IMG/VR virus record: IMGVR_UViG_2906454065_000003
Location: 1-64,000 of that record
DNA from: a virus
Reading direction: 5' to 3' (one strand)
Length of the DNA stretch: 64,000 bases
Shown here: in pieces, positions 4,180-62,849 of the stretch
How positions within the stretch are numbered: the stretch's first letter is position 1
How the letters are laid out: every line of letters begins with the position of its first letter
The notes under the pieces: generated by a model
Told to the model about the DNA's origin: nothing
Seen by the model: the letters and a program-made list of their open reading frames with translations, nothing else
Database searches by the model: none
Position numbers and translations under genes: made by a program

Positions 4180-4186
4180 GGTTGAC

Positions 4187-4456
4187 ATGAAAATAAGACA
4201 AGCTAAGAAGATAATGAAGGAAGTCTATAAAACCCGATATTGGGCTTATAGGCAAGGCTATTATTGTGGCAAGATGGATGCAGGAAAGCTAGCCGGAGAC
4301 CATCGTTTGTTAAAGGCTATGCGTCTTACAAAGAAGTGGGAAAGCCGCAAGATACGAAATGATGTGAATAAAATACTGGAGAAGAATCCGTTCAAACCGA
4401 GGGATCTTCAACGTAGTGTTTTAAGATTGAAAAGATATGGATGTAGCAAAGCTTAA
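4187..4456 (+). CDS. small basic protein, MKIRQAKKI family (paralog)
   Basis: ATG at 4187 gives MKIRQAKKIMKEVYK. The track ORF 4091..4456 starts at an upstream Met in the same frame. Confidence 0.45.
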   Translation: MKIRQAKKIMKEVYKTRYWAYRQGYYCGKMDAGKLAGDHRLLKAMRLTKKWESRKIRNDVNKILEKNPFKPRDLQRSVLRLKRYGCSKA

Positions 4457-8850: not shown

Positions 8851-8874
8851 CCGAGTCGGCACTCGTAAAACGGT
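8851..8874. repeat. left arm of a perfect 24-bp inverted repeat (CCGAGTCGGCACTCGTAAAACGGT)
   Basis: Reverse complement is identical to 13617..13640. Contains the internal palindrome CGAGT-CGGC-ACTCG. Sits in the 5'UTR 9 nt before the ATG at 8883. Confidence 0.9.
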
Positions 8875-8882: not shown

Positions 8883-9221
8883 ATGACAACTTCAATTAAG
8901 AACAAGATGAGAAAGGTAATGCAGTTGGCACATAGAGCCTATCAGTTGAAATCAAGTTCAATGTCTTGGGTTGAGTGCTTGAAACAGGCTTGGCAGGTCG
9001 TAAAGCTTGAGGCAGCGATGAAGACCAAGGTAGTAGAGTTCTTCTTTATGAAGATGAATGGTGAGGTAAGACAAGCCTTTGGTACTCTCCTTCAGAGCCA
9101 CATTGACTATACTCCAAATGGTACAGGGCATGCAGCATCAAGAGATTGCATCCGCTATTGGGATGAAGCAAAGGGCGCATGGAGACAATTCAAGGCTTAC
9201 AACTTCTTGCGAGTTGCATAA
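8883..9221 (+). CDS. hypothetical protein (paralog of 13278..13613)
   Basis: 112 aa. Conserved blocks AW..KL, IV.F.F.K..G..R.AFGTL and WR.FK.N..RVA are shared with the convergent copy. Confidence 0.55.
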   Translation: MTTSIKNKMRKVMQLAHRAYQLKSSSMSWVECLKQAWQVVKLEAAMKTKVVEFFFMKMNGEVRQAFGTLLQSHIDYTPNGTGHAASRDCIRYWDEAKGAWRQFKAYNFLRVA

Positions 9222-11503: not shown

Positions 11504-11604
11504 AATAACAATACTTCTGTAATAAAAATACAAGTTATTGAAAATTAGCGCAAAAGTCTTTGTTGTTCTAAGGGTTAGATAAGATGTAAATGTAAAAATA
11601 AATA

Positions 11605-11637
11605 GAGCCTCAACCTCTAACGAGATTGGGGCTTTTA
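11605..11637. terminator. bidirectional intrinsic terminator between convergent genes
   Basis: Stem AGCCTCAA / TTGGGGCT with a 12-nt loop, flanked by a T-run on + (TTTT) and an A-run upstream. Confidence 0.5.
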
Positions 11638-11645
11638 CAGTTGTC

Positions 11646-12485
11646 TTAGTGTGTCTCACCGCTTGCAAACATATCTACTTGTTTGGATGACTTGTAGCCA
11701 ATGATTTCCAATACCTCCTCAAACTTGTTGTCATACCACTTTGGAATGGTTTGCCCAGGCACATCTTTGTAGATGTCATTCAAAGCATACACCAAACCTT
11801 TTTCGGTGACAGAATAGTACTTGTGAACCTTGCTATTTGTACCCTTTCGGGTCTTCTCTTCCAATAAGCCAGCAGCCAATGCCAGCTTATTGAATTTGAT
11901 GGCTGACAACTCAACACCACGTTCTTTCAACAATTCACTGACTGCGTGCGAAGCACCATTCGGAGCGTGGACGTAATCAGGAACCGGAACTCCATAAGGC
12001 TCTGCTATCTGGCTCACCAACTGCAAGCGTGCGGCATCACTATATCGCAACGAGTCCATTACCCAATTGGCAACCGTCAACTTGTCTTGCAAGAAACTTT
12101 GCTGAGGCTTCATTTGCTCGGCTTGCACCTGCTCACGATGCTTAATTTCCAACTCCTCCCAACGCAAAACCAACTTCGCTCTTGCCTCATCATTAAACTT
12201 GGTGGCAATGTAAAGACTCTCACGTTTGGTAAGGGAATAACAAGGACGCTCACGTCCGTTTTCATCTAAGTAAGAGCAGAGGGAAAAATTTCCCCGAGCC
12301 ACCTTAAACCATGATTCTTCCATTTTACGAATAGCTTTCATCACATCTGCGTGACGTTTATTTGCTATTGTAGCAATTTCCAACGAGGTGATTCTTTCTT
12401 CTCCATCACCTGTCATACCAGATTTCACACTGCCCGATGGGAACACTGGCGGATTCACCATCATTCGGTTTACATTTTCTGTCAT
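11646..12485 (-). CDS. phage antirepressor / Rha-KilAC-like regulatory protein
   Basis: N-terminal SLEIATIANKRHADVMKAIRK resembles the phage Rha/ORF6N regulatory domain. The C-terminal half resembles KilA-C. 279 aa. Confidence 0.5.
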   Translation of the reverse strand: MTENVNRMMVNPPVFPSGSVKSGMTGDGEERITSLEIATIANKRHADVMKAIRKMEESWFKVARGNFSLCSYLDENGRERPCYSLTKRESLYIATKFNDEARAKLVLRWEELEIKHREQVQAEQMKPQQSFLQDKLTVANWVMDSLRYSDAARLQLVSQIAEPYGVPVPDYVHAPNGASHAVSELLKERGVELSAIKFNKLALAAGLLEEKTRKGTNSKVHKYYSVTEKGLVYALNDIYKDVPGQTIPKWYDNKFEEVLEIIGYKSSKQVDMFASGETH

Positions 12486-12945
12486 AGTAACTCCAAATTT
12501 AAATTGTTAATAATTATATTTGGCTGTGGTGGAAACGAAAAGCCCCATCCGCTAAAGTCACGAGAGCGGACAGGGCTTGTGTCAACCGTCCACTTATGTA
12601 AGGCGATGAACGGAATGACAATACTCCACGCTTGGAGCAAATGAAAATATTTAATTTTAAATTTTAAAAATATGATCTATATCCTCATTAGCCGTGCTCG
12701 TGACTTCACAACCTTGTTATTTTCGGCTGCAAAGTTAATGCTTTTCTTGTTAACATGCAAACGCTTTAGTGTTTTATTTAAAATATTAACGTTTGTTTTA
12801 CTATGGAGGACTTCTGCCCTCGCCAGCACGACCAGCTATCGTGGCACGTTGCTGCACATTACTTCTTCTTTCCATTGCTCACGGAATTTAATTGTTAAAC
12901 ATCAAAGATAATGTGCAGTTGTTTCGGTGTGCCTCACGAAATCTA

Positions 12946-13277: not shown

Positions 13278-13613
13278 TTATGCAACTCTCATAAGGTTTG
13301 CCTTCTTGAAGCAACGCCATTCTTCTTTCTCGGTATCGAAGTACACTTGGCAAGTGTCATTCATCTTGCGACCTGCACCCTGTGTAGCTGGGATAACCTT
13401 CTCGCTCAATGTGCCGAATGCCTCACGCAAGCTACCATCAACCTTCTGAAAGTAAAACTTCACGATGCGCTTCTTCATCTGACCCTTCAGCTTGATGTTC
13501 ATCCAAGCGACCTTTAAAGCCTCGCTCATTGTGTAGCCATTCTTCTTGATGAACTGCCAAGCAAGCTTCATTACCTCACTCAATGTATTTCTTAATGTAG
13601 TAGCCATAATCAC
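13278..13613 (-). CDS. hypothetical protein (paralog of 8883..9221)
   Basis: 111 aa, homologous to 8883..9221. The ATG lies 9 nt inside the right IR arm. Confidence 0.55.
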   Translation of the reverse strand: MIMATTLRNTLSEVMKLAWQFIKKNGYTMSEALKVAWMNIKLKGQMKKRIVKFYFQKVDGSLREAFGTLSEKVIPATQGAGRKMNDTCQVYFDTEKEEWRCFKKANLMRVA

Positions 13614-13616: not shown

Positions 13617-13640
13617 ACCGTTTTACGAGTGCCGACTCGG
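13617..13640. repeat. right arm of the 24-bp perfect inverted repeat
   Basis: ACCGTTTTACGAGTGCCGACTCGG is the reverse complement of 8851..8874. Confidence 0.9.
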
Positions 13641-16213: not shown

Positions 16214-19200
16214 ATGGCAGAATTAAGATTCGATGTCAAAGCGAATTTCGAGGAGGTTACGAAACTTCGTTCCGAGTGCGAAAAGTTGAGGGCTGAGTTG
16301 TTGAAGACCAATAAGTCAACCGACCCAGCTATTGTTGCGGATTTGACGGAAAAATATGCAGATGCAAGCAATCGCTTAAAGGATTTAACGCAAGCAGCTT
16401 CAAGAGCCGCTTACGTGATGTCTTCTGAGTTTAATAAGAAGATGCAAGCAGCCGCAAGGGAAGTTTATAGCTATGAACTTCAAATGCAAGCTACCAAAGA
16501 CCGAATAGAAAAAATCCAACAGCAAATCACGAACAAGAGATTAACTCTTGGAGTAACTACGGATAAGTCATCCATAGAGTCTTTGCAGAAGAATATTGAC
16601 TATTTGAAAGGTTCTTTGGCAGGTCAAACTGCGCAATTAAAGAACTTAGAAGGAGGTGCTGTCGGTGCTCGTCAGACCTTGGAGAATATGCGGAATGAGT
16701 ATGTTTTGTATGCAGGTTCAGCAAATCCGGCAAAAGAGGCAACAAATATGTTGACCGATAGCATGAGCCAAATGATAGAACGTATGAAGGCCGCTCCAAC
16801 TGCCGGAGAAGGAATGACTAGTTTGTTCCAAAGAGTTACTGGCGATGCTCACATGCTTTCGGCAACATTACTTGGTGGCTTGGGATTTGAACAACTGGCA
16901 GGTAGTATTTTTAATACTCGTTCTCAATTCCAGCAACTTGAAATATCTTTCAATACCATGCTTGGTAGTGCGGATAAGTCCAAACAATTGATGGACGAAC
17001 TTATCCAAACGGCAGCTCATACACCTTTCGATATGTCCAGCATTACGGGTGGCGCAAAACAACTTTTGGCATATGGAACGGAAGCGAAAGATGTTAACAA
17101 AACCCTTGTCCAACTTGGTGACATTGCTTCGGGCTTGAACATTCCGCTTGGAGACCTTGTTTATCTTTATGGAACGACCGTTTCGCAAGGAAGAATGTTT
17201 ACAATGGATTTGCGTCAGTTCATGGGTAGAGGTGTCCCATTAGCAGAAGAATTGGGTAAAATCTTACACCAAAACACAACGGAGGTTCAAGAGTCTGTTT
17301 CCAAGGGTAAAGTGACATCAGACATCTTCAAGGAAGCTATCGCCAACATGACGCAAGCAGGTGGACGCTTCGGAGGCTTGATGGAACAACAATCAAAGAC
17401 CTTTGAGGGTCAGTGGAGCAATATTGGTGACTCCATCCAGCAGATGTTCAACGAAATCGGCAAAAAATCCGAGGGCGTGTTCTCTAGTGGATTGTCAATT
17501 ATTTCTGCTATGGTAGAGAATTGGCAAGAGGTAATAAAAGTTATTGGCGTAGCTACAGTAGCCGTTGGTTCTTATCGTGCATCATTAATGGCGGCTGCTT
17601 CTATTCGCAAAGCAGAGGAAGCGCAACAAGCCGATGATATGATGAAGGGAATTGATGCTGAAATCAAGCGTTTGCAAGACCTAGAGAACTCAAACTACAA
17701 GTCGCTGGGTAAGGACAAAAAGCAAGAGCGAGTAAGCAAACAACAAGACTTGGCAAGTATTGTTGGAGATACTGCTGTGTCCGATGACTTTGTAAAGGCA
17801 AGGTTAGATGCAGCCGAGCAAGAGGGCGTTATTTCGGCACAAATGCGTTCCCAACTAGAGACGAAACGTGAACTTTTACAGGCTCAGCAACAAGCAACAG
17901 CACAAAGCCAGATAGAACTTGATGAAGAAAAAAGAAAGACCGAGGAACTTCGTCAACAAAAAATAGAGTCTCTTAAAGATGATTTGAAGACTACTACGGA
18001 GAAAATATCAAATCTTGATGATAGGGATGTAGAGTTGGCTAGACAATATACATCAGCTTTGAATGATTTACAAGATGCCCAAGATGCCTTTGCTGAGGCT
18101 CAAAAATTGGTTGAGGAAACTGCTGGTGGCGCAAACTTGGCTTTTGATGCAGAGGGTAATGCCGTGAATGCGCTAGAAGCAAAAGAACGTTTGGAAACGG
18201 CAACAAAACAAGTGAATGCTGCTCAAACAAAGATTTCGACCATTGAAAGCGAACGTAAGACGATTGCTCAAACAAAGGAGAATTTAAGTAAGCAACAGGC
18301 TACGATACAAAATAATATTAACACTGTTTCTCAAGCTTCCAATACCACTGCAAAGAAAGCTGGGATATTGGCGACAACAACAGCCACTATCAAAAATGCG
18401 CTTTATGCAGCAGGTACAAAATATACGACTACGGTAGTTAATCTTTTTTCTAGTGCGGTAAGAAGTAGTGGAAATGCCTTGAAGAGTTTATGGGCGGCAA
18501 TGGCTGCTAATCCGATAGGTGCATTGATAACACTGGGAACAACTTTGTATTCCGTATTTTCTATGTTTGGAGACGAGACTGAAGAAATTTCGGCAGATAC
18601 AACACATTTTGGGGAAACAACAAGTTTGACCAGTAAAAAGGTTGAGACATTGATGAATGTGTTGAGAAATACGAATGAAAGTACTGATGCACATAAAAAA
18701 GCAAAAGATGAACTTATTGGGGTATATGAACAATATGGAATAAAATGCGACAATGAAAAGGATAATTTGGAAACGTTGAAAAATAAGCATGACGCTTTTA
18801 TTGCTTCTTTACAATTAGAAAATGCTGAACGAGAAAAAGCTAACGCTTTGATGTCTATATCTTCTCAATATGAGGAAGCAAGGAAAAACCTAGATAAGGA
18901 TTTTTCTGATTCACTAGGTGGTAGTTGGCTTGATTTCGGACAACATATTGATAAAGAAGACATATCAGCTGTACAGATGATGTTTAATTCACTTGTTTCT
19001 GATGATGCGTTGACTAAGATAGACTCTTTAAGGCAGAAAATGGATTCCGCAAAGAAAGGAACATTGGAATATGCTAATGCCGCACAAGAATACGATGCTG
19101 ATCTTCGCAACCTGTTAGTTCCTTTTGAGGAATGGGGTAAGAAGATGGGGTACAATAGTTTCGTGATGGCAAGTTTGCGAAGTTCGATATTAAAGCATAT

Positions 19201-22200
19201 AGATAGTATAAACTCTTTGAATGAAAGTTACAAAAAGGCAGAGGACGCAATATATAAAGGAAGCACAGCGACTGTTGATTGGAATAACTCCCAAGCAAAG
19301 GCTCGTTGGATAGTAAACAAGAACAAGCAATCAATCCAAGAATTGGTAGAGCAAACTGATAATCTTATCAATTTATGGAATAAAGAATATGGGTTGAATT
19401 TAAAAATTCATTATGATGATTCGGAAATTCCAAATTGGATGAAATCTATGACAACGAAGGAGTTGCGAAATTTAATTTCAAGGAGAGAGGCGGATATTTT
19501 ACAACAGGAAAATCACGAAAAGAAAACTGGGCATAAGTTGGTAACACGTTCAGGAGGTAAGTTTAGGTCAAGAACGGAAAACCAAACGGATGTCGCAATG
19601 GCGAAATCTATAATTCAATCACGTACACCAAAGAGTAGTACAACAACAAAATCAAATACAACCCATACTACTCCAAAGAAAACAGGTACAACGGATGACC
19701 CACAAGCAAGAGCGTATGAACGCAAGAAGGCTGAGGAGGACTATTCCAAGTCTATTTCATCCTATTCGGAGAAAGCTATCCAAGATATGACCAAAAATCG
19801 CATCAATGCGATGAATGAGGGCTATAGCAAGGAATTGGCTCAGATTACCGAGAATGCCGACAAGGAGAGAAAGGCGGTAGAAGAAGGTATAGACAAATTG
19901 GTTGAGGCTAGAAAAAAACGTGACCAAGCTGTTTGGGTTAATTCCGGCAAGGGTCGTAAGGCTAATATGTGGAAACAGAGCAAAACCAATGAAGAGTACA
20001 AGAATGAGGTTTTGAATGAAACCATGAAGGATAGCAAGGGTAATCCGGTTAAGGTCAATGGTATGAATATGACCATAGGCATGAGTGTTGCTAATCAGAT
20101 GAATGCAATTCGGGATAAGGCGGTAAAGCAGAATGAGGATGTGCTTGCTAAAGAAGCGCAAAGCATGTACGATTATCTGAAGACTTATGGCACATACCAG
20201 GAGCAGAAGTTAGCTATTGCTGCCGATTATGCTAAGAGGATTAGCGAGGTTGAAAACTCTACGGATTCGGACTCAAGCAAGCAATGGAAGATAAAGTCTT
20301 TGAAAGAAGAGCAGAAGAAAGAGACGGATTCGGTTGAGGCTAGTGCTATTATGCAGAAGATAGACTGGTATCAAGTCTTCGGAAATGTTGGTGGCATTAT
20401 GAAAGATGTGCTTGTTCCTTTATTGGCAGATCTGGATAAGTTCGTAGGTACGGATAAGTTCCAAAATTTGGGTGCAGACCAGCAGAAGAGTATCGTTGAT
20501 GCTATGCAGAATATCCGTAATTCGATTGGCAATACAAGTGATTTAGGTTGGAAAGACCTTGCAAGGGATGTTGTAGCTTATCAGGATGCTCTGAAGAATG
20601 CGAAAGTTGCACAAGATGAATACACGAAAACGGAAACTTTGCTTATACCTCGTATTAAGGTTTTGCAAGAACAGATTGAGAATGCGAAAAAGTCGGGCAA
20701 TGTTGCAGAGCAAACAAGGCTACAAGAAGAATTGAATAAAGTTCAAGGTCAGTTAGCGGAGTCCGGAAAGAAGATTGTTACGGCTAACACAAAAGTTCGT
20801 ACTAGTGGTCAGAAGTTGGCTCAAACGACACAGAATGTGACACAACCGATTTCTGCTATCCATGAGTTCCTTTCTACTTCTGGACTATCCGATTTGGCAT
20901 CTCTTTGGGATAGTTTTGACCAACTTAAAGGTGGAATTGACGGATTGAAAGCTTTAAAGGAGGCTAAAAATGCGGCTGACGGACTGAAGGATATGGGTAA
21001 GGAAGCCGCAGATGCTGCCGCAGATGCTGGCAAGAAAGCTGGTGATGCACTAAGTGAAGGATTGTCAAAAGCTGGACTAATAGGTCAAATCGTATCTGCC
21101 ATCTTGAAGATACTTGATGTTTTGAAAGATGGTATTGGAACATTGATTAGTAGCTTGATTGATACAGTTCTGAATGCGGTCAACGGCATATTAAAGAATA
21201 TTCTAAGTGGCGATTTTATAACTCAGATTGGAGGGTCTTTGGTAAGCGGCATTGGTAATATTCTCAATACTATATCGTTTGGTGGATTCAATAGTTTGTT
21301 TGGAGTTGGTGGAAACGCAAAAGAAGTAAACCGGACTATAGATAAATTGACGGATAGAAATGAAATCTTGACGGATGCTATAGACAAGTTACGAGACTCC
21401 ATAGACAAGAATAGTGGTATTAAAGCCGTAGAGGATGCTAAAAAAGCCGAAAACCTCCAAAAGGAGAAAGAACAAAATTTAAAGAGTATCATGGAGGCGC
21501 AAATGGGTTATCATGGCTCTCATCACAGTTTTAACGCTTATTTCCGAGGATTTTCGCAAGAGCAAATCAAAAAGGTGTCCGATGCAATAGGCAGACAATG
21601 GAATGGTAATCTTAACGACTTGCAATCTGCTGATGAAGCAGCTGCCATTTTGCAGAATCCAGATATGGTTGAGGCTATCAAGAATACAGGTAAGGGTGGC
21701 TATGGAGGTAGAGTTCTTGAAAAGTTGAAAGACTATGCGGCTGAGGCTGGAACATTAGAGGAAATTGCTGATGACCTTGCAGAAAGCTTGACGCAAATAT
21801 CTTTTGATAGTTTGAAGAGCGAGTTCATAGATACTTTGATGGATATGAATTCCTCTGCTCAAGACTTCTCTGATAATTTCTCCAAGATGCTTATGCAAGC
21901 CGTTCTGAAAGCTAAGGTGGATGATTTGTTGGGAAATGATATGCAAGCATTCTATGACGAATGGGCGGAACGAGCTGAGGCAAATGGTGGTAAATTGTCA
22001 AAGACAGATATAACTGCCTTGAAGGGAAAGTATGATGAAATGGTTCAAGAAGGACTGAAGATTAGAGATGAAGTAGCCGAAATAACGGGTTACAAGCAAT
22101 CTTACGAGCAGTCCGCTTCTTCCGGTTCATTTGAGTCTATGAGCCAAGACACAGGCGATGAGTTGAATGGTCGTTTCACAGCGGTACAAATTGCCACAGA

Positions 22201-22477
22201 GGGAACGTATGAGGAAACAAAGCTCATAAATACCAAGTTGGATGCTATTGCGGCTCGTGAAGGTGGCGCAGAGGGTAGTTTACTAACGGCTAGCGTGAAT
22301 ACTATAATGGGTAATGTAGGTAACATTTGGTTAGCTGTTGATGAGGGTAGGACTATCCTTGCACAAAGCTTAATGTACTTGCAGTCGATTGATGAGCGAC
22401 AAGAGCGATGGCATAAGCCTATGTTGCAAGCATTCAATGATATACACGAATTGAAAGATAAGATGAGTAGATTGTAA
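16214..22477 (+). CDS. phage tail tape measure protein
   Basis: 2087 aa. N-terminal coiled coils. The core (aa 200-370: LAGSIFNTRSQF...LGDIASGLNIPLGDLVYLYGTTVSQGRMFTMDL) is a canonical TP901-type TMP domain. Gly/Ala-rich helical repeats sit near the C-terminus. Confidence 0.85.
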   Translation: MAELRFDVKANFEEVTKLRSECEKLRAELLKTNKSTDPAIVADLTEKYADASNRLKDLTQAASRAAYVMSSEFNKKMQAAAREVYSYELQMQATKDRIEKIQQQITNKRLTLGVTTDKSSIESLQKNIDYLKGSLAGQTAQLKNLEGGAVGARQTLENMRNEYVLYAGSANPAKEATNMLTDSMSQMIERMKAAPTAGEGMTSLFQRVTGDAHMLSATLLGGLGFEQLAGSIFNTRSQFQQLEISFNTMLGSADKSKQLMDELIQTAAHTPFDMSSITGGAKQLLAYGTEAKDVNKTLVQLGDIASGLNIPLGDLVYLYGTTVSQGRMFTMDLRQFMGRGVPLAEELGKILHQNTTEVQESVSKGKVTSDIFKEAIANMTQAGGRFGGLMEQQSKTFEGQWSNIGDSIQQMFNEIGKKSEGVFSSGLSIISAMVENWQEVIKVIGVATVAVGSYRASLMAAASIRKAEEAQQADDMMKGIDAEIKRLQDLENSNYKSLGKDKKQERVSKQQDLASIVGDTAVSDDFVKARLDAAEQEGVISAQMRSQLETKRELLQAQQQATAQSQIELDEEKRKTEELRQQKIESLKDDLKTTTEKISNLDDRDVELARQYTSALNDLQDAQDAFAEAQKLVEETAGGANLAFDAEGNAVNALEAKERLETATKQVNAAQTKISTIESERKTIAQTKENLSKQQATIQNNINTVSQASNTTAKKAGILATTTATIKNALYAAGTKYTTTVVNLFSSAVRSSGNALKSLWAAMAANPIGALITLGTTLYSVFSMFGDETEEISADTTHFGETTSLTSKKVETLMNVLRNTNESTDAHKKAKDELIGVYEQYGIKCDNEKDNLETLKNKHDAFIASLQLENAEREKANALMSISSQYEEARKNLDKDFSDSLGGSWLDFGQHIDKEDISAVQMMFNSLVSDDALTKIDSLRQKMDSAKKGTLEYANAAQEYDADLRNLLVPFEEWGKKMGYNSFVMASLRSSILKHIDSINSLNESYKKAEDAIYKGSTATVDWNNSQAKARWIVNKNKQSIQELVEQTDNLINLWNKEYGLNLKIHYDDSEIPNWMKSMTTKELRNLISRREADILQQENHEKKTGHKLVTRSGGKFRSRTENQTDVAMAKSIIQSRTPKSSTTTKSNTTHTTPKKTGTTDDPQARAYERKKAEEDYSKSISSYSEKAIQDMTKNRINAMNEGYSKELAQITENADKERKAVEEGIDKLVEARKKRDQAVWVNSGKGRKANMWKQSKTNEEYKNEVLNETMKDSKGNPVKVNGMNMTIGMSVANQMNAIRDKAVKQNEDVLAKEAQSMYDYLKTYGTYQEQKLAIAADYAKRISEVENSTDSDSSKQWKIKSLKEEQKKETDSVEASAIMQKIDWYQVFGNVGGIMKDVLVPLLADLDKFVGTDKFQNLGADQQKSIVDAMQNIRNSIGNTSDLGWKDLARDVVAYQDALKNAKVAQDEYTKTETLLIPRIKVLQEQIENAKKSGNVAEQTRLQEELNKVQGQLAESGKKIVTANTKVRTSGQKLAQTTQNVTQPISAIHEFLSTSGLSDLASLWDSFDQLKGGIDGLKALKEAKNAADGLKDMGKEAADAAADAGKKAGDALSEGLSKAGLIGQIVSAILKILDVLKDGIGTLISSLIDTVLNAVNGILKNILSGDFITQIGGSLVSGIGNILNTISFGGFNSLFGVGGNAKEVNRTIDKLTDRNEILTDAIDKLRDSIDKNSGIKAVEDAKKAENLQKEKEQNLKSIMEAQMGYHGSHHSFNAYFRGFSQEQIKKVSDAIGRQWNGNLNDLQSADEAAAILQNPDMVEAIKNTGKGGYGGRVLEKLKDYAAEAGTLEEIADDLAESLTQISFDSLKSEFIDTLMDMNSSAQDFSDNFSKMLMQAVLKAKVDDLLGNDMQAFYDEWAERAEANGGKLSKTDITALKGKYDEMVQEGLKIRDEVAEITGYKQSYEQSASSGSFESMSQDTGDELNGRFTAVQIATEGTYEETKLINTKLDAIAAREGGAEGSLLTASVNTIMGNVGNIWLAVDEGRTILAQSLMYLQSIDERQERWHKPMLQAFNDIHELKDKMSRL

Positions 22478-24152: not shown

Positions 24153-24176
24153 GGTGAGACACACCATAAAAACTGT
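24153..24176 (+). promoter_or_regulatory. hairpin motif copy a (GGTGAGACACACC-ATAAA-AACTGT)
   Basis: Stem GGTG / CACC, loop AGACA. Sits in the 5' leader of ORF 24185..24406. Confidence 0.5.
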
Positions 24177-24184: not shown

Positions 24185-24406
24185 ATGAATACTAGATTGA
24201 GTAAGAAAGAGACAATGGTTTATGGCAACATCGAAGTGATGGCTGATGTAATTGGTGGTAACAAGTACTTTACATTTGCTGAGTTGTATGATTTCGATTT
24301 GGATAATACCAAGGATGAGTTGAAAGAAATTTTAAACTCTTTGACTGAGAAAGGTTACTTGAAGAGTTTTAATGATTTCGATAAAACTTATCGAGTTTTG
24401 AAGTAA
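24185..24406 (+). CDS. hypothetical protein
   Basis: 73-aa ORF downstream of the promoter and hairpin motif. Confidence 0.45.
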   Translation: MNTRLSKKETMVYGNIEVMADVIGGNKYFTFAELYDFDLDNTKDELKEILNSLTEKGYLKSFNDFDKTYRVLK

Positions 24407-24451
24407 GAACAACAAAGGGGATATGAAATCCCCTTACAATATAAATTTAGA

Positions 24452-24474
24452 GCGTGAGACACACGTAAAACTGT
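24452..24474 (+). promoter_or_regulatory. hairpin motif copy b (GCGTGAGACACACG-TAAAACTGT)
   Basis: Stem CGTG / CACG. The outer pair is swapped relative to copy a (G-C to C-G), which is compensatory. Confidence 0.5.
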
Positions 24475-24572
24475 ATTGAAACAATGAAAAAGGTATTCAC
24501 AATTGAGAATGCGTTAGCGTTTTTATTTGCTCTTGAAATAGTATCATTAATATTTTTTCTAGGATAGGGCTT

Positions 24573-38928: not shown

Positions 38929-39213
38929 ATGTATAAAAACGAGCACAAGTTCCCTTATAGATGGACTAAAAAAGATGCTAATTTCACAAAAGACAAAGGT
39001 AAGGTGATGTCTTGCTTTTGTTGTGGAGGTGGAAGTTCCTTTGGTTACAAACTAGCTGGCTACGATGTTGTAGCCTGTAATGAGATAGACCCAAAGGTTA
39101 TGAAGATGTACTTGAAGAATCACGATGTCAAGTATTCTTTCAATTGTGATATTCGTGAGTTGATTACCAATATCAATATGGGGGGGGCATATTATGAAAG
39201 AAGAGTTGCATAA
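38929..39213 (+). CDS. DNA (cytosine-5)-methyltransferase, N-terminal part (motifs I-II), truncated by frameshift
   Basis: FCCGGGSSFG is motif I (FxGxG). ACNEID is motif II. The frame ends 8 codons after a G8 tract. Confidence 0.7.
   Translation: MYKNEHKFPYRWTKKDANFTKDKGKVMSCFCCGGGSSFGYKLAGYDVVACNEIDPKVMKMYLKNHDVKYSFNCDIRELITNINMGGAYYERRVA
39180..39187. repeat. poly-G(8) homopolymer tract inside the C5-MTase gene
   Basis: ATGGGGGGGGCAT. A 9-G (or 6-G) tract would fuse frame 1 (..NINMGG) to frame 2 (HIMKEEL...DILDASFPC). Confidence 0.9.
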
Positions 39214-40036
39214 TTTGGATATATTGGATGCTAGTTTCCCATGTTCTGTATTCAGTATTGCAGGTGACCGCCAAAAGGCTTGGGGAAAGGAAAAAGTATT
39301 CCGAGAAGGTCAGAAGGCGCAAAGGCTTGACGATTTGGCTTTCTACTCTATTGACCTTGCTAAAGAACTAAAGCCAAAGGTGGTGGTTTTTGAGAATGTC
39401 CAAGGTTTGTTGCAAGGTGAAGCTATCGAGTACGTGAAAGAGATTTACAAGCAGATGGATAATGCCGGATATATCTTGCAGCATTGGTTGCTTAATGCAC
39501 GTAATATGGGTGTTCCTCAGAATCGACCTAGGGTGTTCTTTCTAGGATTACGCAAAGACCTTTGCGAGCCGTTTATGGTTCAGAAGGATTTGTTCGAGCG
39601 AGTGCCTAAGATAGATATGGACTTCAACGAGAAAGAAATTGTCTTGGATGAGTTCTCGGACTATAATGGAAGACAGATTCCTAAAGGAATGATGAAGTAT
39701 TGGGAGTATAGAAACGAAAAGGACAATTCTATCGGTGATATTGTCAAGCGGATGGATAATCGTCTTTCTATGTTCAATAATATGTTTCTTAAAAAGAACA
39801 AGGTATGCAATACCATATCAGCAATGGAAGATAGACTTGTGTATTATGATAATCCAAGTTATCTTTCAGCACATGATACGATTTTAGCATCAACATTTCC
39901 GATGGATTATGACTTTAATGGCATGAAACCTTGGTTTGCTTGCGGAATGTGTGTTCCTCCTGTTATGATGGCTAATGTAGCTACAAGAATCTGGGATTGT
40001 TGGTTATCAAAGATTAAAAAGGAGGAATGCGCATGA
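39194..40036 (+). CDS. DNA (cytosine-5)-methyltransferase, C-terminal part (motifs IV onward)
   Basis: DILDASFPCSVFS is motif IV (PC). ENVQGLL is motif VI (ENV). Frame 2 is open upstream through the G tract. Confidence 0.7.
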   Translation: MKEELHNLDILDASFPCSVFSIAGDRQKAWGKEKVFREGQKAQRLDDLAFYSIDLAKELKPKVVVFENVQGLLQGEAIEYVKEIYKQMDNAGYILQHWLLNARNMGVPQNRPRVFFLGLRKDLCEPFMVQKDLFERVPKIDMDFNEKEIVLDEFSDYNGRQIPKGMMKYWEYRNEKDNSIGDIVKRMDNRLSMFNNMFLKKNKVCNTISAMEDRLVYYDNPSYLSAHDTILASTFPMDYDFNGMKPWFACGMCVPPVMMANVATRIWDCWLSKIKKEECA

Positions 40037-40770
40037 TAACAGCAAGTATGACATCGGGAGAGATGCGTAGAGTACGAAACTTAGATGAAGCTAGAATCTA
40101 TGAGTTTCAGATGCGAAAAGCTAATGAGCTTAAACGTGAAATGAGAAAGCAGAACGTAAGACAAATAACAAAGACCTTTGAGCTTGCTACACCTAATGCC
40201 GATTATTTCATCGTTGTAGGTGTAAAACATGGCGATGTATTTGCTTCCGGTTTGTTCATTTATCTGAAGGAAACCAACGAGTATATTCCTATGAGTAGAA
40301 ACGAGGGGTATAGCGAAGATTGTTTTGCTATGAGCGTTCATTTTCTGAAGAGATTTGCAGAAAGGTTTTTGAAAAAAGACTTACCGATTCTCAAGATATT
40401 GCAAAAGATATATACATCGTTTACAGGTGCTGTTCAGCTCTATAGTGATGACAAGACAAGAAGAGTGGTATTTGCTATTCCGGAAGGGCTTATACTCACA
40501 GAATACGAGCAAGAAAAGCATATCATCCATTACAAAACCTTTGTAAGCATGGATATGCTAAAGAAGACACAGAAGCGGAGTTATGAGAAGATAAGTGCAT
40601 TTCTCATGGAGTCTTGTCAGCAAATAGCTAAAGCAAGAGACACCGGAAATGACGAAAGGCTGTGCGTTGTGTACAGAAGGTTTTACAATGATATTGATTT
40701 GCTAGATACAAAGGAGGCGCAAGCCATATATTCAAGTTTCTTTGAAAAAGGAGGTAACAATGAAAGATAA
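40027..40770 (+). CDS. hypothetical protein
   Basis: 247-aa ORF that overlaps the MTase stop. Confidence 0.45.
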   Translation: MRMITASMTSGEMRRVRNLDEARIYEFQMRKANELKREMRKQNVRQITKTFELATPNADYFIVVGVKHGDVFASGLFIYLKETNEYIPMSRNEGYSEDCFAMSVHFLKRFAERFLKKDLPILKILQKIYTSFTGAVQLYSDDKTRRVVFAIPEGLILTEYEQEKHIIHYKTFVSMDMLKKTQKRSYEKISAFLMESCQQIAKARDTGNDERLCVVYRRFYNDIDLLDTKEAQAIYSSFFEKGGNNER

Positions 40771-41263
40771 ATGTATAACAAGGTTTCTTGGTGATATAAA
40801 GCCTATAAAGAATTACGAAAGGTATTATGTTAGCAAGCTGGGACATGTTTTTACTATTGGGAGAACGTCTCAATTAAAGGAAATCGCCCCATGTAAGACA
40901 CCAAAAGGTTATCTGAAGGTATGGCTTTACAAGAACGGAAAACGCAAAATGTTCTATATCCATCGTTTGGTAGCTCAGGCTTTCTTGGAGAATCCAGATG
41001 CGTTGCCGATGGTGAATCATAAGGATTTCGACAAGACGAATAACGATGTAGACAACTTGGAGTATTGCACTGCAAGATACAATATGGTTTATTCGGCTAT
41101 AGCAAAGAAGACTTCATCTGTATACTTGGGCGTGACGTGGAATAAGAACAACAGAAAATGGCAAGCTCAGTACCAGATAGGTAAGAAGAAAATTTATATC
41201 GGATGCTTTGGGACGCAAGAAGAAGCTCACGAAGCTTATGTTAACGCTATTAAAGAGATTTGA
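40742..41263 (+). CDS. HNH homing endonuclease (NUMOD4 / HNH_3 / AP2 architecture)
   Basis: YYVSKLGHVFT is NUMOD4-like. HRLVAQAF...VNHKDFDKTNNDVDNLEY is HNH_3. GVTWNKNNRKWQAQ...GCFGTQEEAHEAY is an AP2 domain. Confidence 0.75.
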   Translation: MKKEVTMKDKCITRFLGDIKPIKNYERYYVSKLGHVFTIGRTSQLKEIAPCKTPKGYLKVWLYKNGKRKMFYIHRLVAQAFLENPDALPMVNHKDFDKTNNDVDNLEYCTARYNMVYSAIAKKTSSVYLGVTWNKNNRKWQAQYQIGKKKIYIGCFGTQEEAHEAYVNAIKEI

Positions 41264-41264: not shown

Positions 41265-41975
41265 ATGCTAGAATTAAACAGAATATACAATTCCGACTGT
41301 ATAGAAGGAATGAAGCAAATAGAGAGTGGGGAGGTGGATTTGATTGTTACTGACCATCCGTATTGCATAGCCTACAAGACTGGGTGGAGAGCTGACGACC
41401 ATCGTTTCTCTAAGGAAATACTCAATGATGATAATGAGCAATTGATTATTGATTATATGAGCGAATGCTACCGGATTTTAAAGGATGATAGTGCTGCTTA
41501 TATCTTCTGTAGTGCTAAGACCTTGGACTTTTTTATGCAACAAGCGAGGAATGCAGGGTTTACCATTAAGAATGTGCTCATTTGGCGAAAGAACAACCAT
41601 ACTGCTGGAGATTTAGAGGCGCAATATGGTCAATGTTACGAGCCAATCCTGTACTTGAATAAAGGCAGACGAACCATAAACGGCAAGCGCTTAGAGGATG
41701 TTTGGGACTTTGATAGAGTTCCATCAGATAAATTGGTACATCAGAACGAGAAACCAATCCCCTTGCTTATGCAATGCATCTTGAAATCATCAAATGAAGG
41801 CGACTTGGTGTTTGATGGCTTTATGGGCAGCGCAAGTACGGCTCTTGCTTGTTTGCGTACCAACAGAAAGTTCCTTGGCTTTGAATTGGATAAGGATTAT
41901 TTCAATGTGGCACAGAGAAGAATTAAGGAAGAAATGTCTAACCAAAAAGATATGTTTGGATATGCTGGAGATTAA
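41265..41975 (+). CDS. beta-class DNA N6-adenine/N4-cytosine methyltransferase
   Basis: Start MLELNRIYNSDC. DLIVTDHPY is a motif IV variant of DPPY. HQNEKPIPLL then VFDGFMGSASTALAC is motif I (FxGxG), placed C-terminally as in the beta class. Confidence 0.7.
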   Translation: MLELNRIYNSDCIEGMKQIESGEVDLIVTDHPYCIAYKTGWRADDHRFSKEILNDDNEQLIIDYMSECYRILKDDSAAYIFCSAKTLDFFMQQARNAGFTIKNVLIWRKNNHTAGDLEAQYGQCYEPILYLNKGRRTINGKRLEDVWDFDRVPSDKLVHQNEKPIPLLMQCILKSSNEGDLVFDGFMGSASTALACLRTNRKFLGFELDKDYFNVAQRRIKEEMSNQKDMFGYAGD

Positions 41976-42678
41976 TAAAATTTACCAAGGCGATTGCAGA
42001 AAGCTATTGAAGCTGATAGACAATGATAGCATAGACCTCGTATGTTCCGATGTGGCTTATCCGGTTCAGTCTAGAGGCGGCTCAGGGAATATGGGAGGAT
42101 ATTGGACTGACTCTCAGACGAGAAAGGGTAAGATATTCAAAAGCAACGATATTGATATTTCCGAGTATATTAATGATTTGTACCGGATATTAAAGGACAG
42201 GTCTCATTGTTATCTGATGTGTAATGATTTTAACTTAATGCATTTTCTTGATGTGATAGGAAAGAGCGAATTTCACTTCACTAAATGCTTAATATGGGAT
42301 AAATGCGCAAAGATATGTGGTCGTTATTATATGGCTCAGAAAGAGTATATCATCATGCTCTGCAAAGGAGGTGACAGACCTATAAATGAATGTGGTACAT
42401 CTGATATTCTGAGTGTTCCTATTCCTACCAACAAACGCAAGGATAAGGATGGGTTGATTAATCAAACAGAAAAACCAGTGAAGTTGATGGAGATACTAAT
42501 CAGAAACTCAACAAATGTTGGTGATGTCATTCTAGACCCATTTATGGGGAGCGGTACAACGGCAAGGGCTTGTGTTAATCTTGAAAGGCAGTATGTCGGT
42601 TTTGAGATAGACCAACGACAAGTCGATTTTGCCAATAACGAATTAAAGAACATGAGTAGGCAATTAAGTCTGTTCTAA
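41962..42678 (+). CDS. beta-class DNA methyltransferase (tandem paralog)
   Basis: Start MLEINKIYQGDC. DLVCSDVAYP, TEKPVKLM, ILDPFMGSGTTARAC. Overlaps the previous gene by 14 nt. Confidence 0.7.
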   Translation: MLEINKIYQGDCRKLLKLIDNDSIDLVCSDVAYPVQSRGGSGNMGGYWTDSQTRKGKIFKSNDIDISEYINDLYRILKDRSHCYLMCNDFNLMHFLDVIGKSEFHFTKCLIWDKCAKICGRYYMAQKEYIIMLCKGGDRPINECGTSDILSVPIPTNKRKDKDGLINQTEKPVKLMEILIRNSTNVGDVILDPFMGSGTTARACVNLERQYVGFEIDQRQVDFANNELKNMSRQLSLF

Positions 42679-44966: not shown

Positions 44967-45002
44967 ACTTGCATATTTCGAATATTCTTTGTATCTTTGC
45001 AT
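44967..45002 (+). promoter_or_regulatory. Bacteroides-type promoter (repeated cassette copy)
   Basis: ACTTGCATATTTCGAATATTCTTTGTATCTTTGCATCG, with the -7 box at 44992..44999. Confidence 0.55.
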
Positions 45003-45037: not shown

Positions 45038-45061
45038 GGTGAGACACACCACAAAAACTGT
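45038..45061 (+). promoter_or_regulatory. hairpin motif copy c (GGTGAGACACACC-ACAAA-AACTGT)
   Basis: Identical stem-loop to copy a, sitting in the leader of ORF 45071. Confidence 0.5.
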
Positions 45062-45070: not shown

Positions 45071-45445
45071 GTGGAAAAGTTTTTTGAAAACTTATCTGAA
45101 AAGTTTAATGATGCGGCTTTTGAGGCGCAACTTGATGATTTTACTTGCGAGTTTGATGCTATTAACAAACCTGCTGAAATCGTGGTGTCCGTTAAGAGTA
45201 GAAAGGTTATCCATTCATATGGAAATATTTCTTCTTATCCATATTACAATGTAGATAAGATTAATATCTATAATGAAGACGGAGAAGACGTTTCTTCAAA
45301 ATATCCTTTGTTCTGCCAAAGAGTTAAGGATTGCGTGCCTTCTTATAAAGATGTAGAGAATGACTTGACGGAGGCAAATATGAGCGATACCGAGCTTTAT
45401 TTCGGCTCAGAGGCTAATTATTTGCATTACAAGTATGGTAACTAA
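45071..45445 (+). CDS. hypothetical protein
   Basis: 124-aa ORF. Confidence 0.45.
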   Translation: MEKFFENLSEKFNDAAFEAQLDDFTCEFDAINKPAEIVVSVKSRKVIHSYGNISSYPYYNVDKINIYNEDGEDVSSKYPLFCQRVKDCVPSYKDVENDLTEANMSDTELYFGSEANYLHYKYGN

Positions 45446-52178: not shown

Positions 52179-52472
52179 ATGTTTGAAGATATTGTTGCTG
52201 AAGGCAATATAGTTGTGATAAATAATAATTGGATTGTGTTATGTAAGTGTTGGAAACCAGAATATCATAATCTGTTCTGTTATCTTTATCTCCATAAGGA
52301 ATATAAGAATTTAATGGTAGGCTCTCATTTCACAATGACCGAGGATAAAAAGAAATCTACTCGGTTGGCTACCAACGAGGAGCGTCTTATGCTTTTTGAA
52401 GAAATGTTCAAGTATGGAATTACTTTCGATAAGCACGAACATCGTTTGATTGGAAAGTTAGTTGGTGTATGA
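52179..52472 (+). CDS. hypothetical protein
   Basis: 97-aa ORF. Confidence 0.4.
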   Translation: MFEDIVAEGNIVVINNNWIVLCKCWKPEYHNLFCYLYLHKEYKNLMVGSHFTMTEDKKKSTRLATNEERLMLFEEMFKYGITFDKHEHRLIGKLVGV

Positions 52473-62180: not shown

Positions 62181-62204
62181 ACAGTTTTTATGGTGTGTCT
62201 CACC
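62181..62204 (-). promoter_or_regulatory. hairpin motif copy d (- strand) upstream of helicase gene
   Basis: The reverse complement reads GGTGAGACACACC-ATAAA-AACTGT, about 75-100 nt upstream of the helicase ATG at 62094. Confidence 0.5.
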
Positions 62205-62288
62205 AAGACGATTGCAAAGGTACGAAGAATAATTTAATAATGCAAACAATTTAGTGTATATTATTAATGCAGTAACATTATTTAAACC

Positions 62289-62816: not shown

Positions 62817-62849
62817 AATCTTTATCCTTTATCAAACCAAAAGTCATAG

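What the first reader, a model, noticed from the sequence alone, without database searches (positions are those of the whole stretch)
24153..24176. Five-copy conserved hairpin motif GGTGAGACACACC-N5-AACTGT(AA) with a compensatory stem change
Copies lie at 24153 (+), 24452 (+), 45038 (+), 62181..62204 (-) and 11637..11660 (-). Three sit in 5' leaders just downstream of repeated promoters. One lies 75-100 nt upstream of the helicase gene. One overlaps the stop codon of the antirepressor gene and runs into the bidirectional terminator. The core can fold as GGUG-AGACA-CACC. In copy b the outer pair is G-C to C-G swapped (CGUG...CACG), which preserves pairing. That covariation argues for a structured element: an RNA hairpin bound by a regulator or antiterminator, or a DNA site for a dimeric protein (GTG-N7-CAC).
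Basis: seen in the sequence. Interest (0 to 1): 0.6.

Follow-up and report, generated by a model that had tools for sequence, protein, structure and literature searches.

The report
Conserved RNA pseudoknot just upstream of start codons
The repeated "hairpin" is real, but it is a small RNA pseudoknot that ends about 8 bases before start codons in hundreds of gut phage and mobile-element genes; no catalogued RNA family matches it, and it probably helps or controls the start of protein synthesis.

Summary
The motif is real and far beyond chance. The window holds six copies, not five; the extra one is at 12915-12938(-). All six lie in the sense orientation of the local genes.

Comparison with more than 400 related loci changes the picture. 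The stem covaries freely (GGUG/CACC, CGUG/CACG, GUGC/GCAC, AUGG/CCAU, GCGC/GCGC, plus G.U wobbles). The third loop base covaries with the last base of the conserved AACUGU tail: A-U, G.U and G-C are common, and A.C is almost absent. The element is therefore a compact H-type pseudoknot: S1 of 4-6 bp, L1 = AG, S2 of 3 bp, and an A-rich L3 of 5-9 nt.

In 49% of 324 distinct instances a start codon lies 7-10 nt after the motif, against 4% at random positions. In Lachnospiraceae phages the motif abuts the Shine-Dalgarno sequence. The downstream genes are unrelated, and one instance sits between chromosomal higB and higA. A phage-specific partner protein is therefore unlikely.

No Rfam family matches and no paper holding the core string concerns phage or bacterial RNA.

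Best reading: a portable cis-acting element of the translation-initiation region, acting as enhancer, ribosome-recruitment site or insulator. The mechanism is inferred, not shown. The reading as a DNA site for a dimeric protein is rejected, and the nut-like antiterminator reading is unlikely.

The parts
24153..24176 (+). Copy a. S1 24153-24156/24162-24165 (extended by AU 24151-24152/24166-24167), loop AGACA 24157-24161, L3 24166-24173, S2 3' strand UGU 24174-24176. The ATG of the 73-aa ORF is at 24185 (8-nt spacer).
   Evidence: 42.9 bits
24453..24474 (+). Copy b. CGUG-AGACA-CACG, short L3 (UAAAAC), UGU 24472-24474. A 9-nt spacer leads to the ATG at 24484 of a conserved 27-aa ORF (24484-24567).
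   Evidence: 25.6 bits; ORF conserved with synonymous changes
45038..45061 (+). Copy c. GGUG-AGACA-CACC-ACAAAAAC-UGU. A 9-nt spacer leads to the GTG start at 45071 of the 124-aa ORF (ATG at the same position in relatives).
   Evidence: 44.9 bits
62181..62204 (-). Copy d. It starts 10 nt after the -7 box of its promoter, so it lies at the very 5' end of the helicase-operon leader. A structured insert of 86 nt separates it from the helicase ATG (62094).
   Evidence: 42.7 bits. The helicase homolog in L277 has the motif 4 nt from its ATG.
11637..11660 (-). Copy e. GGUG-AGACA-CACU (G.U outer pair). It encodes the last residues G-E-T-H plus the TAA stop (11646-11648) of the Ant-like ORF. No start codon follows; it is followed by a terminator hairpin.
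   Evidence: 34 bits
12915..12938 (-). Loop AGGCA with tail AACUGC, a G-C compensatory version of the loop-tail pair. The outer S1 pair is C/C. It lies 4 nt after the TAA TAG stops of the 99-aa ORF.
   Evidence: 24.3 bits
24085..24115 (+). Bacteroidota-type promoter (TTG..TAtcTTTG) of the cassette carrying copy a
44969..44999 (+). Bacteroidota-type promoter of the cassette carrying copy c (cassette about 90% identical to that of copy a)
62215..62246 (-). Bacteroidota-type promoter upstream of copy d
24415..24435 (+). Hairpin AAGGGGAU-AUGAA-AUCCCCUU between the 73-aa ORF and copy b. This is the typical 'upstream hairpin, then pseudoknot, then AUG' layout of intercistronic copies.
11606..11633 (-). 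Terminator hairpin directly after copy e, followed by a U-rich run (11590-11605)
   Evidence: -19.6 kcal/mol, z -3.4
24185..24406 (+). 73-aa ORF served by copy a
45071..45445 (+). 124-aa ORF served by copy c

Best explanation
The motif is a self-contained, cis-acting H-type RNA pseudoknot in the mRNA. It forms the 5' edge of the translation-initiation region.

Fold: S1 of 4-6 bp of any sequence; L1 = A-G; loop bases 3-5 (A/G-C-A) pair with the U-G-U/C of the downstream AACUGY to give a 3-bp S2 stacked on S1; the A-rich L3 of 5-9 nt, ending in AAC, runs along the S1 minor groove.

Position: the fold ends 7-10 nt before the start codon in Bacteroidota elements. In Lachnospiraceae phages it ends directly before the Shine-Dalgarno sequence.

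Inferred mechanism: it acts through host machinery, meaning the 30S subunit and possibly protein S1, which is known to bind H-type pseudoknots. It would work as a portable translation enhancer or ribosome-recruitment (standby) site. It would also insulate the start region from upstream sequence, giving context-independent expression to genes of mosaic phages and mobile elements.

Shown: the fold (by covariation), the sense orientation, the fixed spacing and the wide distribution. Inferred: the direction of the effect (activation) and the partner (ribosome/S1).
For: Structure, S1:
- The outer S1 pair was not fixed by the search. It formed a standard pair in 149 of 152 instances, as G-C, C-G, U-A, A-U, G.U or U.G.
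- By-catch modules keep the AGACA loop with entirely different stems: GUGC/GCAC, AUGG/CCAU, GCGC/GCGC, AGAG/CUCU.
- On 93 sequences 99.8% of cells pair, and all four S1 pairs show changes on both sides.

Structure, S2 (four equal scans of IMG/VR):
- AGACA + ..UGU: more than 118 loci.
- AGGCA + ..UGC: more than 115 loci.
- AGGCA + ..UGU (G.U): 76 loci.
- AGACA + ..UGC (A.C): 5 loci, of which about 2 look real.
- Both classes coexist in one genome: the window has five A-U copies and one G-C copy.
- Orthologous sites show G.U intermediates.

Link to translation:
- A start codon lies 7-10 nt after the motif in 160 of 324 distinct instances. The figure is 4% at random positions and 1 of 35 for chance-like hits.
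- There is a second peak at 14-18 nt with the layout AACUGU-(A/G)AAAGGAG-N-AUG.
- The spacer has purine at -3 and A at -6.
- GTG and ATG alternate at the same position.

Independence from a phage partner:
- The downstream proteins fall into 74 unrelated clusters among 199.
- The motif sits between higB and higA in the Bacteroides intestinalis chromosome, next to truA. Six Bacteroides and Parabacteroides loci carry this arrangement, with stem covariation.
- It occurs in prophages of isolated Lachnospiraceae.

Direction of effect:
- The genes served need high output: the scaffold protein, SSB, and an antitoxin placed downstream of its toxin.
- S1 binds H-type pseudoknots, and a 5' pseudoknot is required for standby translation of tisB (PMC7708055).
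Against: - There are no expression, probing or binding data for any copy. No cultured phage in the INPHARED collection carries the motif.
- Two of the three S2 pairs never vary, so S2 rests on a single covarying pair. Three AACUGG variants break that pair.
- About half of the instances are not followed closely by a start codon. These include upstream modules of tandem arrays, copy d (86 nt away), copy e (none; it lies at a gene's 3' end before a terminator) and copy f (12 nt to a 4-codon mini-ORF).
- S1 of low-GC Firmicutes differs from S1 of Gram-negative bacteria, which weakens a common S1 mechanism.
- The invariant loop and tail bases would fit a sequence-specific protein equally well.
- A structure ending at -8 could just as well hinder 30S binding, which would mean repression.
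Confidence: 0.5

Rival explanations
1. Operator for a trans-acting RNA-binding protein. A host- or element-encoded regulator recognises the invariant AG..CA loop and AAC-UGU tail. By sitting at the edge of the ribosome-binding site it represses or activates translation of a regulon, as T4 RegA, Mu Com or CsrA do.
For: - Loop and tail are almost invariant while the stem is free. This is typical of protein-recognised hairpins.
- Lachnospiraceae phages carry tandem arrays of 2-4 modules ending at the SD, which resembles multi-site CsrA-type leaders.
- In the window the motif marks small early-looking genes and the replication operon.
Against: - No protein is shared between the window and the Lachnospiraceae loci.
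- The motif works as a single copy in a two-gene chromosomal higBA module and across two phyla. A partner would therefore have to be a conserved host factor.
- The invariance can be explained by tertiary contacts of a compact pseudoknot.
- The loop bases are used for S2 pairing.
Confidence: 0.2
2. mRNA boundary or stabiliser. Polycistronic transcripts are cut between an upstream hairpin and the motif. The pseudoknot then protects the new 5' end of the downstream mRNA from 5'-end-dependent RNases (RNase J, E or Y).
For: - In copies without a promoter, the 55 nt upstream is unusually structured (mean z -1.66; 37% with z below -2).
- Copy b and the Lachnospiraceae arrays follow terminator-like hairpins.
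- Copy d lies at the extreme 5' end of its transcript.
- Tandem pseudoknots before the capsid operon would suit an exonuclease block.
Against: - A 5' protector has no need for a spacing to the start codon that is fixed within about 1 nt.
- Copies a and c lie about 36 nt into their leaders, not at the 5' end.
- No cleavage data exist.
Confidence: 0.15
3. Small-ligand riboswitch related to preQ1-I. A minimal pseudoknot with an A-rich tail whose folding, and hence access to the start codon, depends on a metabolite.
For: - The tail AUAAAAACUGU resembles the preQ1-I tail AUAAAAAACUA (from my own knowledge).
- The topology is the same and so is the position next to the start codon or SD.
Against: - The Rfam preQ1 models do not match, even at E up to 10.
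- The loop is only 5 nt. There is no L2 and no free ligand-pairing C, and S1 and S2 abut, so no pocket is available.
- The closing pair can be G-C or C-G.
- The downstream genes are unrelated to any one pathway.
Confidence: 0.05
4. One reading: a nut/boxB-like hairpin in early leaders, bound by an antiterminator that lets RNA polymerase read through downstream terminators.
For: - Copies a, c and d lie in leaders just after promoters.
- Copy a precedes a hairpin and copy e precedes a terminator.
- The loop is a pentaloop, as in boxB.
Against: - The constant feature is the start codon, not a promoter or terminator.
- Many copies lie downstream of the nearest terminator.
- The loop is engaged in S2.
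- The motif is present in chromosomal higBA.
- No N-like protein was identified. This was only weakly tested.
Confidence: 0.04
5. DNA-level site: either an operator for a dimeric protein (GTG-N7-CAC) or a single-stranded-DNA hairpin promoter of the N4 type.
For: The core is an inverted repeat, and three copies lie next to promoters.
Against: - Stems of unrelated sequence surround the same asymmetric loop, even within one leader.
- G.T wobbles occur on the sense strand only.
- Orientation is always sense.
- The loop and a distant tail covary.
- No phage RNA polymerase is present. The 2087-aa ORF is a tape measure protein.
Confidence: 0.01

Closest known systems
preQ1-I riboswitch (Rfam RF00522)
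   Same: Very small H-type pseudoknot, with an A-rich 3' tail lying along P1 and a tail end that pairs with loop bases. It sits immediately upstream of the SD or start codon and acts on translation.
   Different: - No CM match.
- The loop is 5 nt rather than 10-12 nt, and there is no L2, no ligand-pairing cytosine and no pocket.
- There is no link to queuosine genes.
- It looks like a constitutively 'closed' version.
Luteovirus (BWYV-type) frameshift pseudoknots
   Same: Nearly the same geometry (from my own knowledge of the BWYV structure): S1 about 5 bp, L1 2 nt, S2 3 bp, A-rich loop of about 7 nt forming minor-groove triples.
   Different: Those lie inside ORFs, 5-9 nt downstream of a slippery heptamer, and stall elongating ribosomes. 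This one lies upstream of start codons and no slippery site precedes it.
tisB +42 mRNA 5' pseudoknot / S1-dependent ribosome standby; rpsO and T4 gene 32 leader pseudoknots
   Same: An H-type pseudoknot in a 5' UTR that governs formation of the 30S initiation complex. S1 is a known pseudoknot binder (PMC7708055).
   Different: - Those are single-gene elements at variable and larger distances from the start codon.
- rpsO and gene 32 are autoregulatory operators bound by their own product.
- This one is a portable module at a fixed spacing of about 8 nt, placed before many unrelated genes in two phyla.
Lambda/P22 nut site (boxA + boxB)
   Same: A short hairpin with a pentaloop plus a linear conserved element, located in early leaders.
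   Different: - The order of the elements is reversed.
- The loop is paired to the tail.
- The position is tied to start codons, not to terminators.
- It occurs outside phages.
STAXI motif (RF01728) and type III toxin-antitoxin RNA repeats (ToxI)
   Same: Tandemly repeated small pseudoknots in mobile elements, near SSB or antirestriction-type genes.
   Different: - STAXI occurs in Enterobacteriales and has UUCG loops (PMC2864571); the CM does not match.
- ToxI repeats are identical, precede a terminator and a toxin gene, and are processed by the toxin. None of this applies here.

Membership tests
preQ1-I riboswitch | Match to the Rfam covariance model RF00522 | tested here: not met
   No hit at the gathering threshold or at E up to 10, in the window or in seven motif-rich loci
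preQ1-I riboswitch | Loop of about 10-12 nt with an L2 cytosine that pairs with the ligand | tested here: not met
   The loop is always 5 nt (AGRCA) and S2 directly abuts S1
preQ1-I riboswitch | Association with queuosine synthesis or transport genes | tested here: not met
   The 74 clusters of downstream proteins are unrelated and none was recognisably related to queuosine
preQ1-I riboswitch | Ligand-dependent folding | not testable with these tools
   Needs in-line probing or ITC
Lambda-type nut site | boxA followed by a boxB hairpin with a free GNRA-like pentaloop | tested here: not met
   The hairpin precedes the linear element, and loop bases 3-5 pair with the tail
Lambda-type nut site | Placed between a promoter and the terminators to be overridden; no relation to start codons | tested here: not met
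   49% of instances lie 7-10 nt from a start codon, and many copies lie after the nearest terminator
Lambda-type nut site | Cognate N-like arginine-rich antiterminator protein | tested here: inconclusive
   None was found among 20 annotated ORFs. A 24-aa Arg-rich ORF at 12801-12875(-) was not followed up. The presence of the motif in chromosomal higBA argues against a phage-specific partner.
Operator DNA for a dimeric protein | Conserved symmetric half-sites, strand- and orientation-independent | tested here: not met
   The half-sites vary freely while the asymmetric centre is fixed. Wobbles occur on one strand only, and orientation is always sense.
N4-type hairpin promoter | Phage-encoded virion RNA polymerase; DNA hairpin with a 3-nt loop upstream of the transcription start | tested here: not met
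   No RNAP was found (the large ORF is a tape measure protein). The loop is 5 nt, and the motif lies downstream of host-type promoters.
-1 frameshift-stimulating pseudoknot (BWYV type) | Compact H-type geometry with an A-rich loop | tested here: met
   S1 4-6 bp, L1 2 nt, S2 3 bp, L3 5-9 nt rich in A
-1 frameshift-stimulating pseudoknot (BWYV type) | Located 5-9 nt downstream of a slippery heptamer inside overlapping ORFs | tested here: not met
   The motif is intergenic and upstream of start codons. Only copy e overlaps an ORF end, and no slippery site precedes it.
5'-UTR pseudoknot acting on translation initiation (tisB standby, rpsO, T4 gene 32: a functional kind, not a homologous family) | Covariation-supported pseudoknot in the leader next to the ribosome-binding region | tested here: met
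5'-UTR pseudoknot acting on translation initiation (tisB standby, rpsO, T4 gene 32: a functional kind, not a homologous family) | Demonstrated effect on 30S binding or protein output | not testable with these tools
   Needs toeprinting and reporter assays
STAXI | Match to RF01728; UUCG-capped tandem pseudoknots | tested here: not met
   No CM hit. The loops are AGRCA.

The most novel reading that the evidence does not exclude
The pseudoknot is a self-sufficient ribosome-recruiting element, in effect a bacterial IRES-like module. Its stacked S1/S2 helix ends about 8 nt before the AUG, the same distance at which a Shine-Dalgarno duplex would sit. It may dock on the 30S platform (through S1 or the SD-helix cleft) and so supply in cis what Bacteroidota ribosomes, with their sequestered anti-SD, cannot obtain by SD pairing. 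Phages and mobile elements would carry it as a plug-in for strong, context-independent translation in two phyla.
Probability: 0.22. Interest if true: 0.85.

Novelty: new variant of a known kind. Interest (0 to 1): 0.62.

Why it matters
How Bacteroidota, the dominant gut phylum, select start codons without Shine-Dalgarno pairing is still poorly understood, and their phages are mostly uncultured.

This 24-30-nt structured element is defined by covariation. It sits at a fixed distance from start codons before many unrelated genes in phages, toxin-antitoxin modules and other putatively mobile elements of Bacteroidota and Lachnospiraceae. That makes it a concrete and easily mutated handle on the question.

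If it enhances or gates initiation, three things follow:
- It becomes a new class of cis-regulatory RNA.
- It serves as a marker for real start codons and small ORFs in gut viromes. It flags a conserved 27-aa ORF in this window.
- It could be a compact expression part for engineering Bacteroides and Segatella.

Tried and rejected
- Rfam at gathering and permissive thresholds, on the window and on motif-rich loci: nothing, including preQ1, STAXI and glutamine riboswitch models.
- Full-text search for the core string and for descriptive terms: no relevant paper. The RbpB paper gave no matching motif.
- Search for a phage RNA polymerase, sigma factor or bS21 in the window: none. The 2087-aa ORF is a tape measure protein, and no S21-like signature (YEKP/EKPS-type pattern) was found among the window's ORF translations.
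- tblastn of all window ORFs against all loci, looking for a protein shared with the Lachnospiraceae phages: only an HNH endonuclease hit.
- Scans for loop variants AGAUA and AGACG, to test the other two S2 pairs: only chance-like hits. Those pairs are therefore invariant and uninformative. The scans did calibrate the chance background.
- Folding energy of the hairpin alone: not significant.
- Fixed distance from an upstream stop codon (termination-reinitiation): the distribution is broad.
- Cas12a or other CRISPR-repeat mimicry (RNA anti-CRISPR) and type III TA repeats: considered from memory and rejected on sequence and gene order.
- INPHARED search for a cultured phage carrying the motif: only uncultured faecal 'Bacteriophage sp.' records.

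Full report
**1. Observation**

The pattern GGTGAGACACACC-N5-AACTGT with up to 3 mismatches matches five times in the window. None of 100 shuffles gave any match. One of these hits (12915-12938, minus strand) is new.

A covariance model built from 93 related instances was run over both strands with filters off. It finds exactly these six copies (E 6e-11 to 6e-5), and the next best hit has E 0.28. All six are in the sense orientation of the surrounding genes.

The window is an uncultured human-gut siphovirus-like phage:
- It has a tape measure protein (16214-22477) and a major head protein (33954-35042).
- It is 96.6% identical to MT835576.
- It is 94-95% identical over more than 7 kb to contigs binned with a Segatella copri MAG.
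- It uses Bacteroidota-type promoters, TTG..TAnnTTTG.

**2. Context in the window**

| Copy | Context |
|---|---|
| a | 8 nt before the ATG of a 73-aa ORF |
| b | 9 nt before a 27-aa ORF that is conserved with synonymous changes in relatives |
| c | 9 nt before a GTG start (ATG in relatives) of a 124-aa ORF |
| d | Starts 10 nt after its promoter's -7 box, 86 nt before the helicase ATG. A homolog in L277 has the motif 4 nt from the ATG, so the 86 nt look like an insertion. |
| e | Encodes the last four residues and the stop of an Ant-like protein, then runs into a strong terminator hairpin |
| f | Follows the stop codons of a 99-aa ORF |

Only 3 of about 14 good promoters in the window are followed by the motif. 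The motif is therefore not simply part of a promoter cassette.

**3. It is widespread**

These come from many phage lineages with contigs of 23-130 kb.

The same pattern scanned over GTDB genomes returned many chance hits, as expected for 596 Gb. It also returned clear true copies:
- In Bacteroidota: Alistipes, Prevotella/Segatella, Bacteroides, Parabacteroides, Phocaeicola, Tannerella and Chitinophagales.
- In Lachnospiraceae, including isolates of Blautia, Lacrimispora and Velocimicrobium.

**4. The stem is a real helix**

The outermost pair was not fixed by the search. It was G-C, C-G, U-A, A-U, G.U or U.G in 149 of 152 instances.

Neighbouring modules found as by-catch keep the loop AGACA and the tail AACUGU but have quite different stems: GUGC/GCAC, AUGG/CCAU, GCGC/GCGC, AGAG/CUCU and CGG/CCG. 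Often three or four different stems stand side by side in one leader.

On a 93-sequence alignment all four stem pairs show changes on both sides. That sample was selected for four stem pairs, so the unbiased evidence is the outer pair and the by-catch modules.

Wobble pairs occur on the sense strand only. Together with the strict sense orientation, this points to RNA. It also excludes a symmetric DNA operator.

**5. The loop pairs with the tail, so it is a pseudoknot**

Loop bases 3-5 (ACA) are complementary to the UGU of AACUGU. Window copy f has loop AGGCA together with tail AACUGC.

I ran the four combinations as four equal scans of IMG/VR:

| Loop | Tail | Pair formed | Loci |
|---|---|---|---|
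| AGGCA | ..UGU | G.U | 76 |
| AGACA | ..UGC | A.C | 5 |

About three of the five A.C hits look like chance. This fits the chance background of 8-42 hits measured with nonsense loop variants.

After de-duplication the counts are 223, 57, 40 and 4. The G-C class occurs before at least ten unrelated genes. Orthologous sites show G.U intermediates.

A change of U to C in the tail is thus tolerated almost only when the loop base is G. This is what a base pair predicts. A protein co-evolving with its site would not predict it, because both classes coexist in single genomes.

The other two S2 pairs never vary, and three AACUGG variants break the covarying pair. S2 is therefore well supported but rests on one pair.

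The resulting architecture is S1 4-6 bp, L1 = AG, S2 3 bp, no L2, and L3 of 5-9 nt that is A-rich and ends in AAC. From my own knowledge, this is that of compact H-type pseudoknots such as the BWYV frameshift signal or the ligand-bound preQ1-I riboswitch.

**6. It is tied to start codons**

Among 324 distinct instances, 160 have a start codon opening a long frame 7-10 nt after the motif (7: 21, 8: 82, 9: 45, 10: 12). The same criterion is met at 4% of random positions in the same loci and by 1 of 35 chance-like hits.

A second peak at 14-18 nt belongs to Lachnospiraceae phages. There, 2-4 tandem modules follow a terminator and the last one abuts the SD, in the layout AACUGU-(A/G)AAAGGAG-N-AUG. 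The gene served is a scaffold-like protein, followed by the capsid gene.

The spacer shows purine at -3 and A at -6.

The downstream proteins fall into 74 unrelated clusters among 199. By inspection of their sequences they look like small acidic proteins, a scaffold protein, a ParB-like protein, a TnpB-like protein, SSB, the HigA antitoxin, and a few host genes (cysS, a yicC-like gene, murQ). Some of the host-gene cases may be chance.

**7. No dedicated partner is apparent**

In Bacteroides intestinalis the motif lies between higB and higA. This is a two-gene chromosomal module flanked by truA and a transporter gene. The same arrangement occurs in five further Bacteroides and Parabacteroides loci with covarying stems.

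No window protein is shared with the Lachnospiraceae loci except an HNH endonuclease. The window encodes no recognisable RNA polymerase, sigma factor or S21.

**8. Mechanism**

Shown: a sense-strand pseudoknot at a fixed distance 5' of the initiation codon, portable between unrelated genes and between phyla.

Inferred: it acts on translation initiation through host machinery.

I favour a positive role (confidence about 0.5 for the translation-element reading as a whole). That role would be a ribosome-recruitment or standby site, or an insulator that keeps the start region free. Three points support this:
- The genes served need high or privileged output: a scaffold protein, SSB, and an antitoxin encoded after its toxin.
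- The start region is predicted to be unpaired.
- S1 is an established binder of H-type pseudoknots, and a 5' pseudoknot is required for standby translation of tisB (PMC7708055).

The rivals are:
- An operator for a conserved RNA-binding protein (0.2).
- A processing boundary or 5' stabiliser (0.15). This is supported by the frequent structured element just upstream of copies that lack a promoter.
- A ligand sensor (0.05).
- A nut-like antiterminator (0.04).
- A DNA site (0.01).

**9. Comparison with known elements**

No Rfam 15 family matches, at gathering or permissive thresholds. No paper in the held library contains the core sequence in a relevant context.

- It resembles preQ1-I in size, topology and tail sequence. 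It fails the model, the loop anatomy and the gene association.
- It resembles luteoviral frameshift pseudoknots in geometry but not in position.
- It works most like the leader pseudoknots of tisB, rpsO and T4 gene 32. It differs in being a multi-gene, fixed-spacing, mobile module.

I therefore rate it a new variant of a known kind: a new family of cis-regulatory leader pseudoknots.

**10. Unexplained**

- Copy e and its relatives sit at the 3' end of two different genes, directly before the same terminator, with no start codon following.
- Copy f is followed by a 4-codon mini-ORF and about 430 nt without a long ORF.
- The purpose of the tandem arrays is unknown.

Noticed in passing
window 30766-30806 (+): The leader of an amidoligase-like gene (ATG 30817; phrog_2443), which is followed by a glutamine-amidotransferase-like gene. 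It reads GGTG-AGAGCGA-CACC, then a hairpin GGGGTAAGACCC, then GAAACAACTAGC, and lies 11 nt before the ATG. It looks like an expanded relative of the motif. It is conserved in three related loci and has no Rfam hit.
   Followed up: partly
window 8851-8866 (+) and 13625-13640 (-): The identical 16-mer CCGAGTCGGCACTCGT (hairpin GAGU-CGGC-ACUC) occurs in the leaders of two paralogous genes (8883-9221 and 13278-13613, phrog_1086). Each leader follows a Bacteroidota-type promoter. This is a second repeated leader element.
   Followed up: partly
window 12485-12915 (-): About 430 nt between copy f and the Ant-like gene has no long ORF. It contains a 24-aa arginine-rich ORF (12801-12875, MERRSNVQQRATIAGRAGEGRSPP; 66 aa in relative L108) and its own promoter (12730-12761).
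   Followed up: no
window 62095-62180 (-): The 86-nt segment between copy d and the helicase ATG carries nested inverted repeats (CTTTTGTTA..TAACAAAAG around ATGCA..TGCAT). It is absent from the helicase homolog in L277. It may be an inserted regulatory element or a small RNA.
   Followed up: partly
window 29632-30067 (+), 62849-63534 (-), 52646-53851 (+): Seven tRNA genes. One of them (29918-29992) ARAGORN reads with a four-base anticodon 'tggt'. The phage also encodes an RtcB-type tRNA ligase.
   Followed up: no
window 24484-24567 (+): A 27-aa hydrophobic ORF (MKKVFTIENALAFLFALEIVSLIFFLG) is conserved in eight relatives, mostly through synonymous changes. It is a likely real small membrane protein that a 60-aa length cut-off would miss.
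   Followed up: yes
window 3856-4179, 4091-4456, 52469-52642 (+): Several small basic proteins share the N-terminus MKIR(Q/L)AKKI(L/M)K, forming a repeated gene family within the phage.
   Followed up: no
L004, L005, L012, L053, L096 and similar (Lachnospiraceae phages and prophages): Arrays of 2-4 tandem pseudoknot modules with different stems. They follow a terminator that contains the upstream gene's stop codon, and they end at the SD of the scaffold-capsid operon.
   Followed up: partly
L066 (and L020, L347-L366), phages of about 100 kb: Every intergenic region in a run of small genes repeats the same cassette: a GNRA-capped hairpin (CGCU-GUGA-AGCG), TTAAGTTAG, a second hairpin, AATGTTTAAT, then the pseudoknot and the ATG.
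   Followed up: no
L126 1090-1870 (-), Bacteroides intestinalis chromosome: higB-[pseudoknot]-higA module between truA and a GAF-domain gene. The motif lies 7 nt before the antitoxin start.
   Followed up: yes
L215 (Bacteroidia MAG), L224, L140: Full-featured motif copies lie 5-9 nt before the host genes cysS, a yicC-like gene and murQ. Either the host uses the element or, for some of these, it is chance in a 596-Gb scan.
   Followed up: partly
window 40742-41263 (+): An HNH endonuclease gene lies between two DNA methyltransferase genes (39194-40036 and 41794-42678).
   Followed up: no
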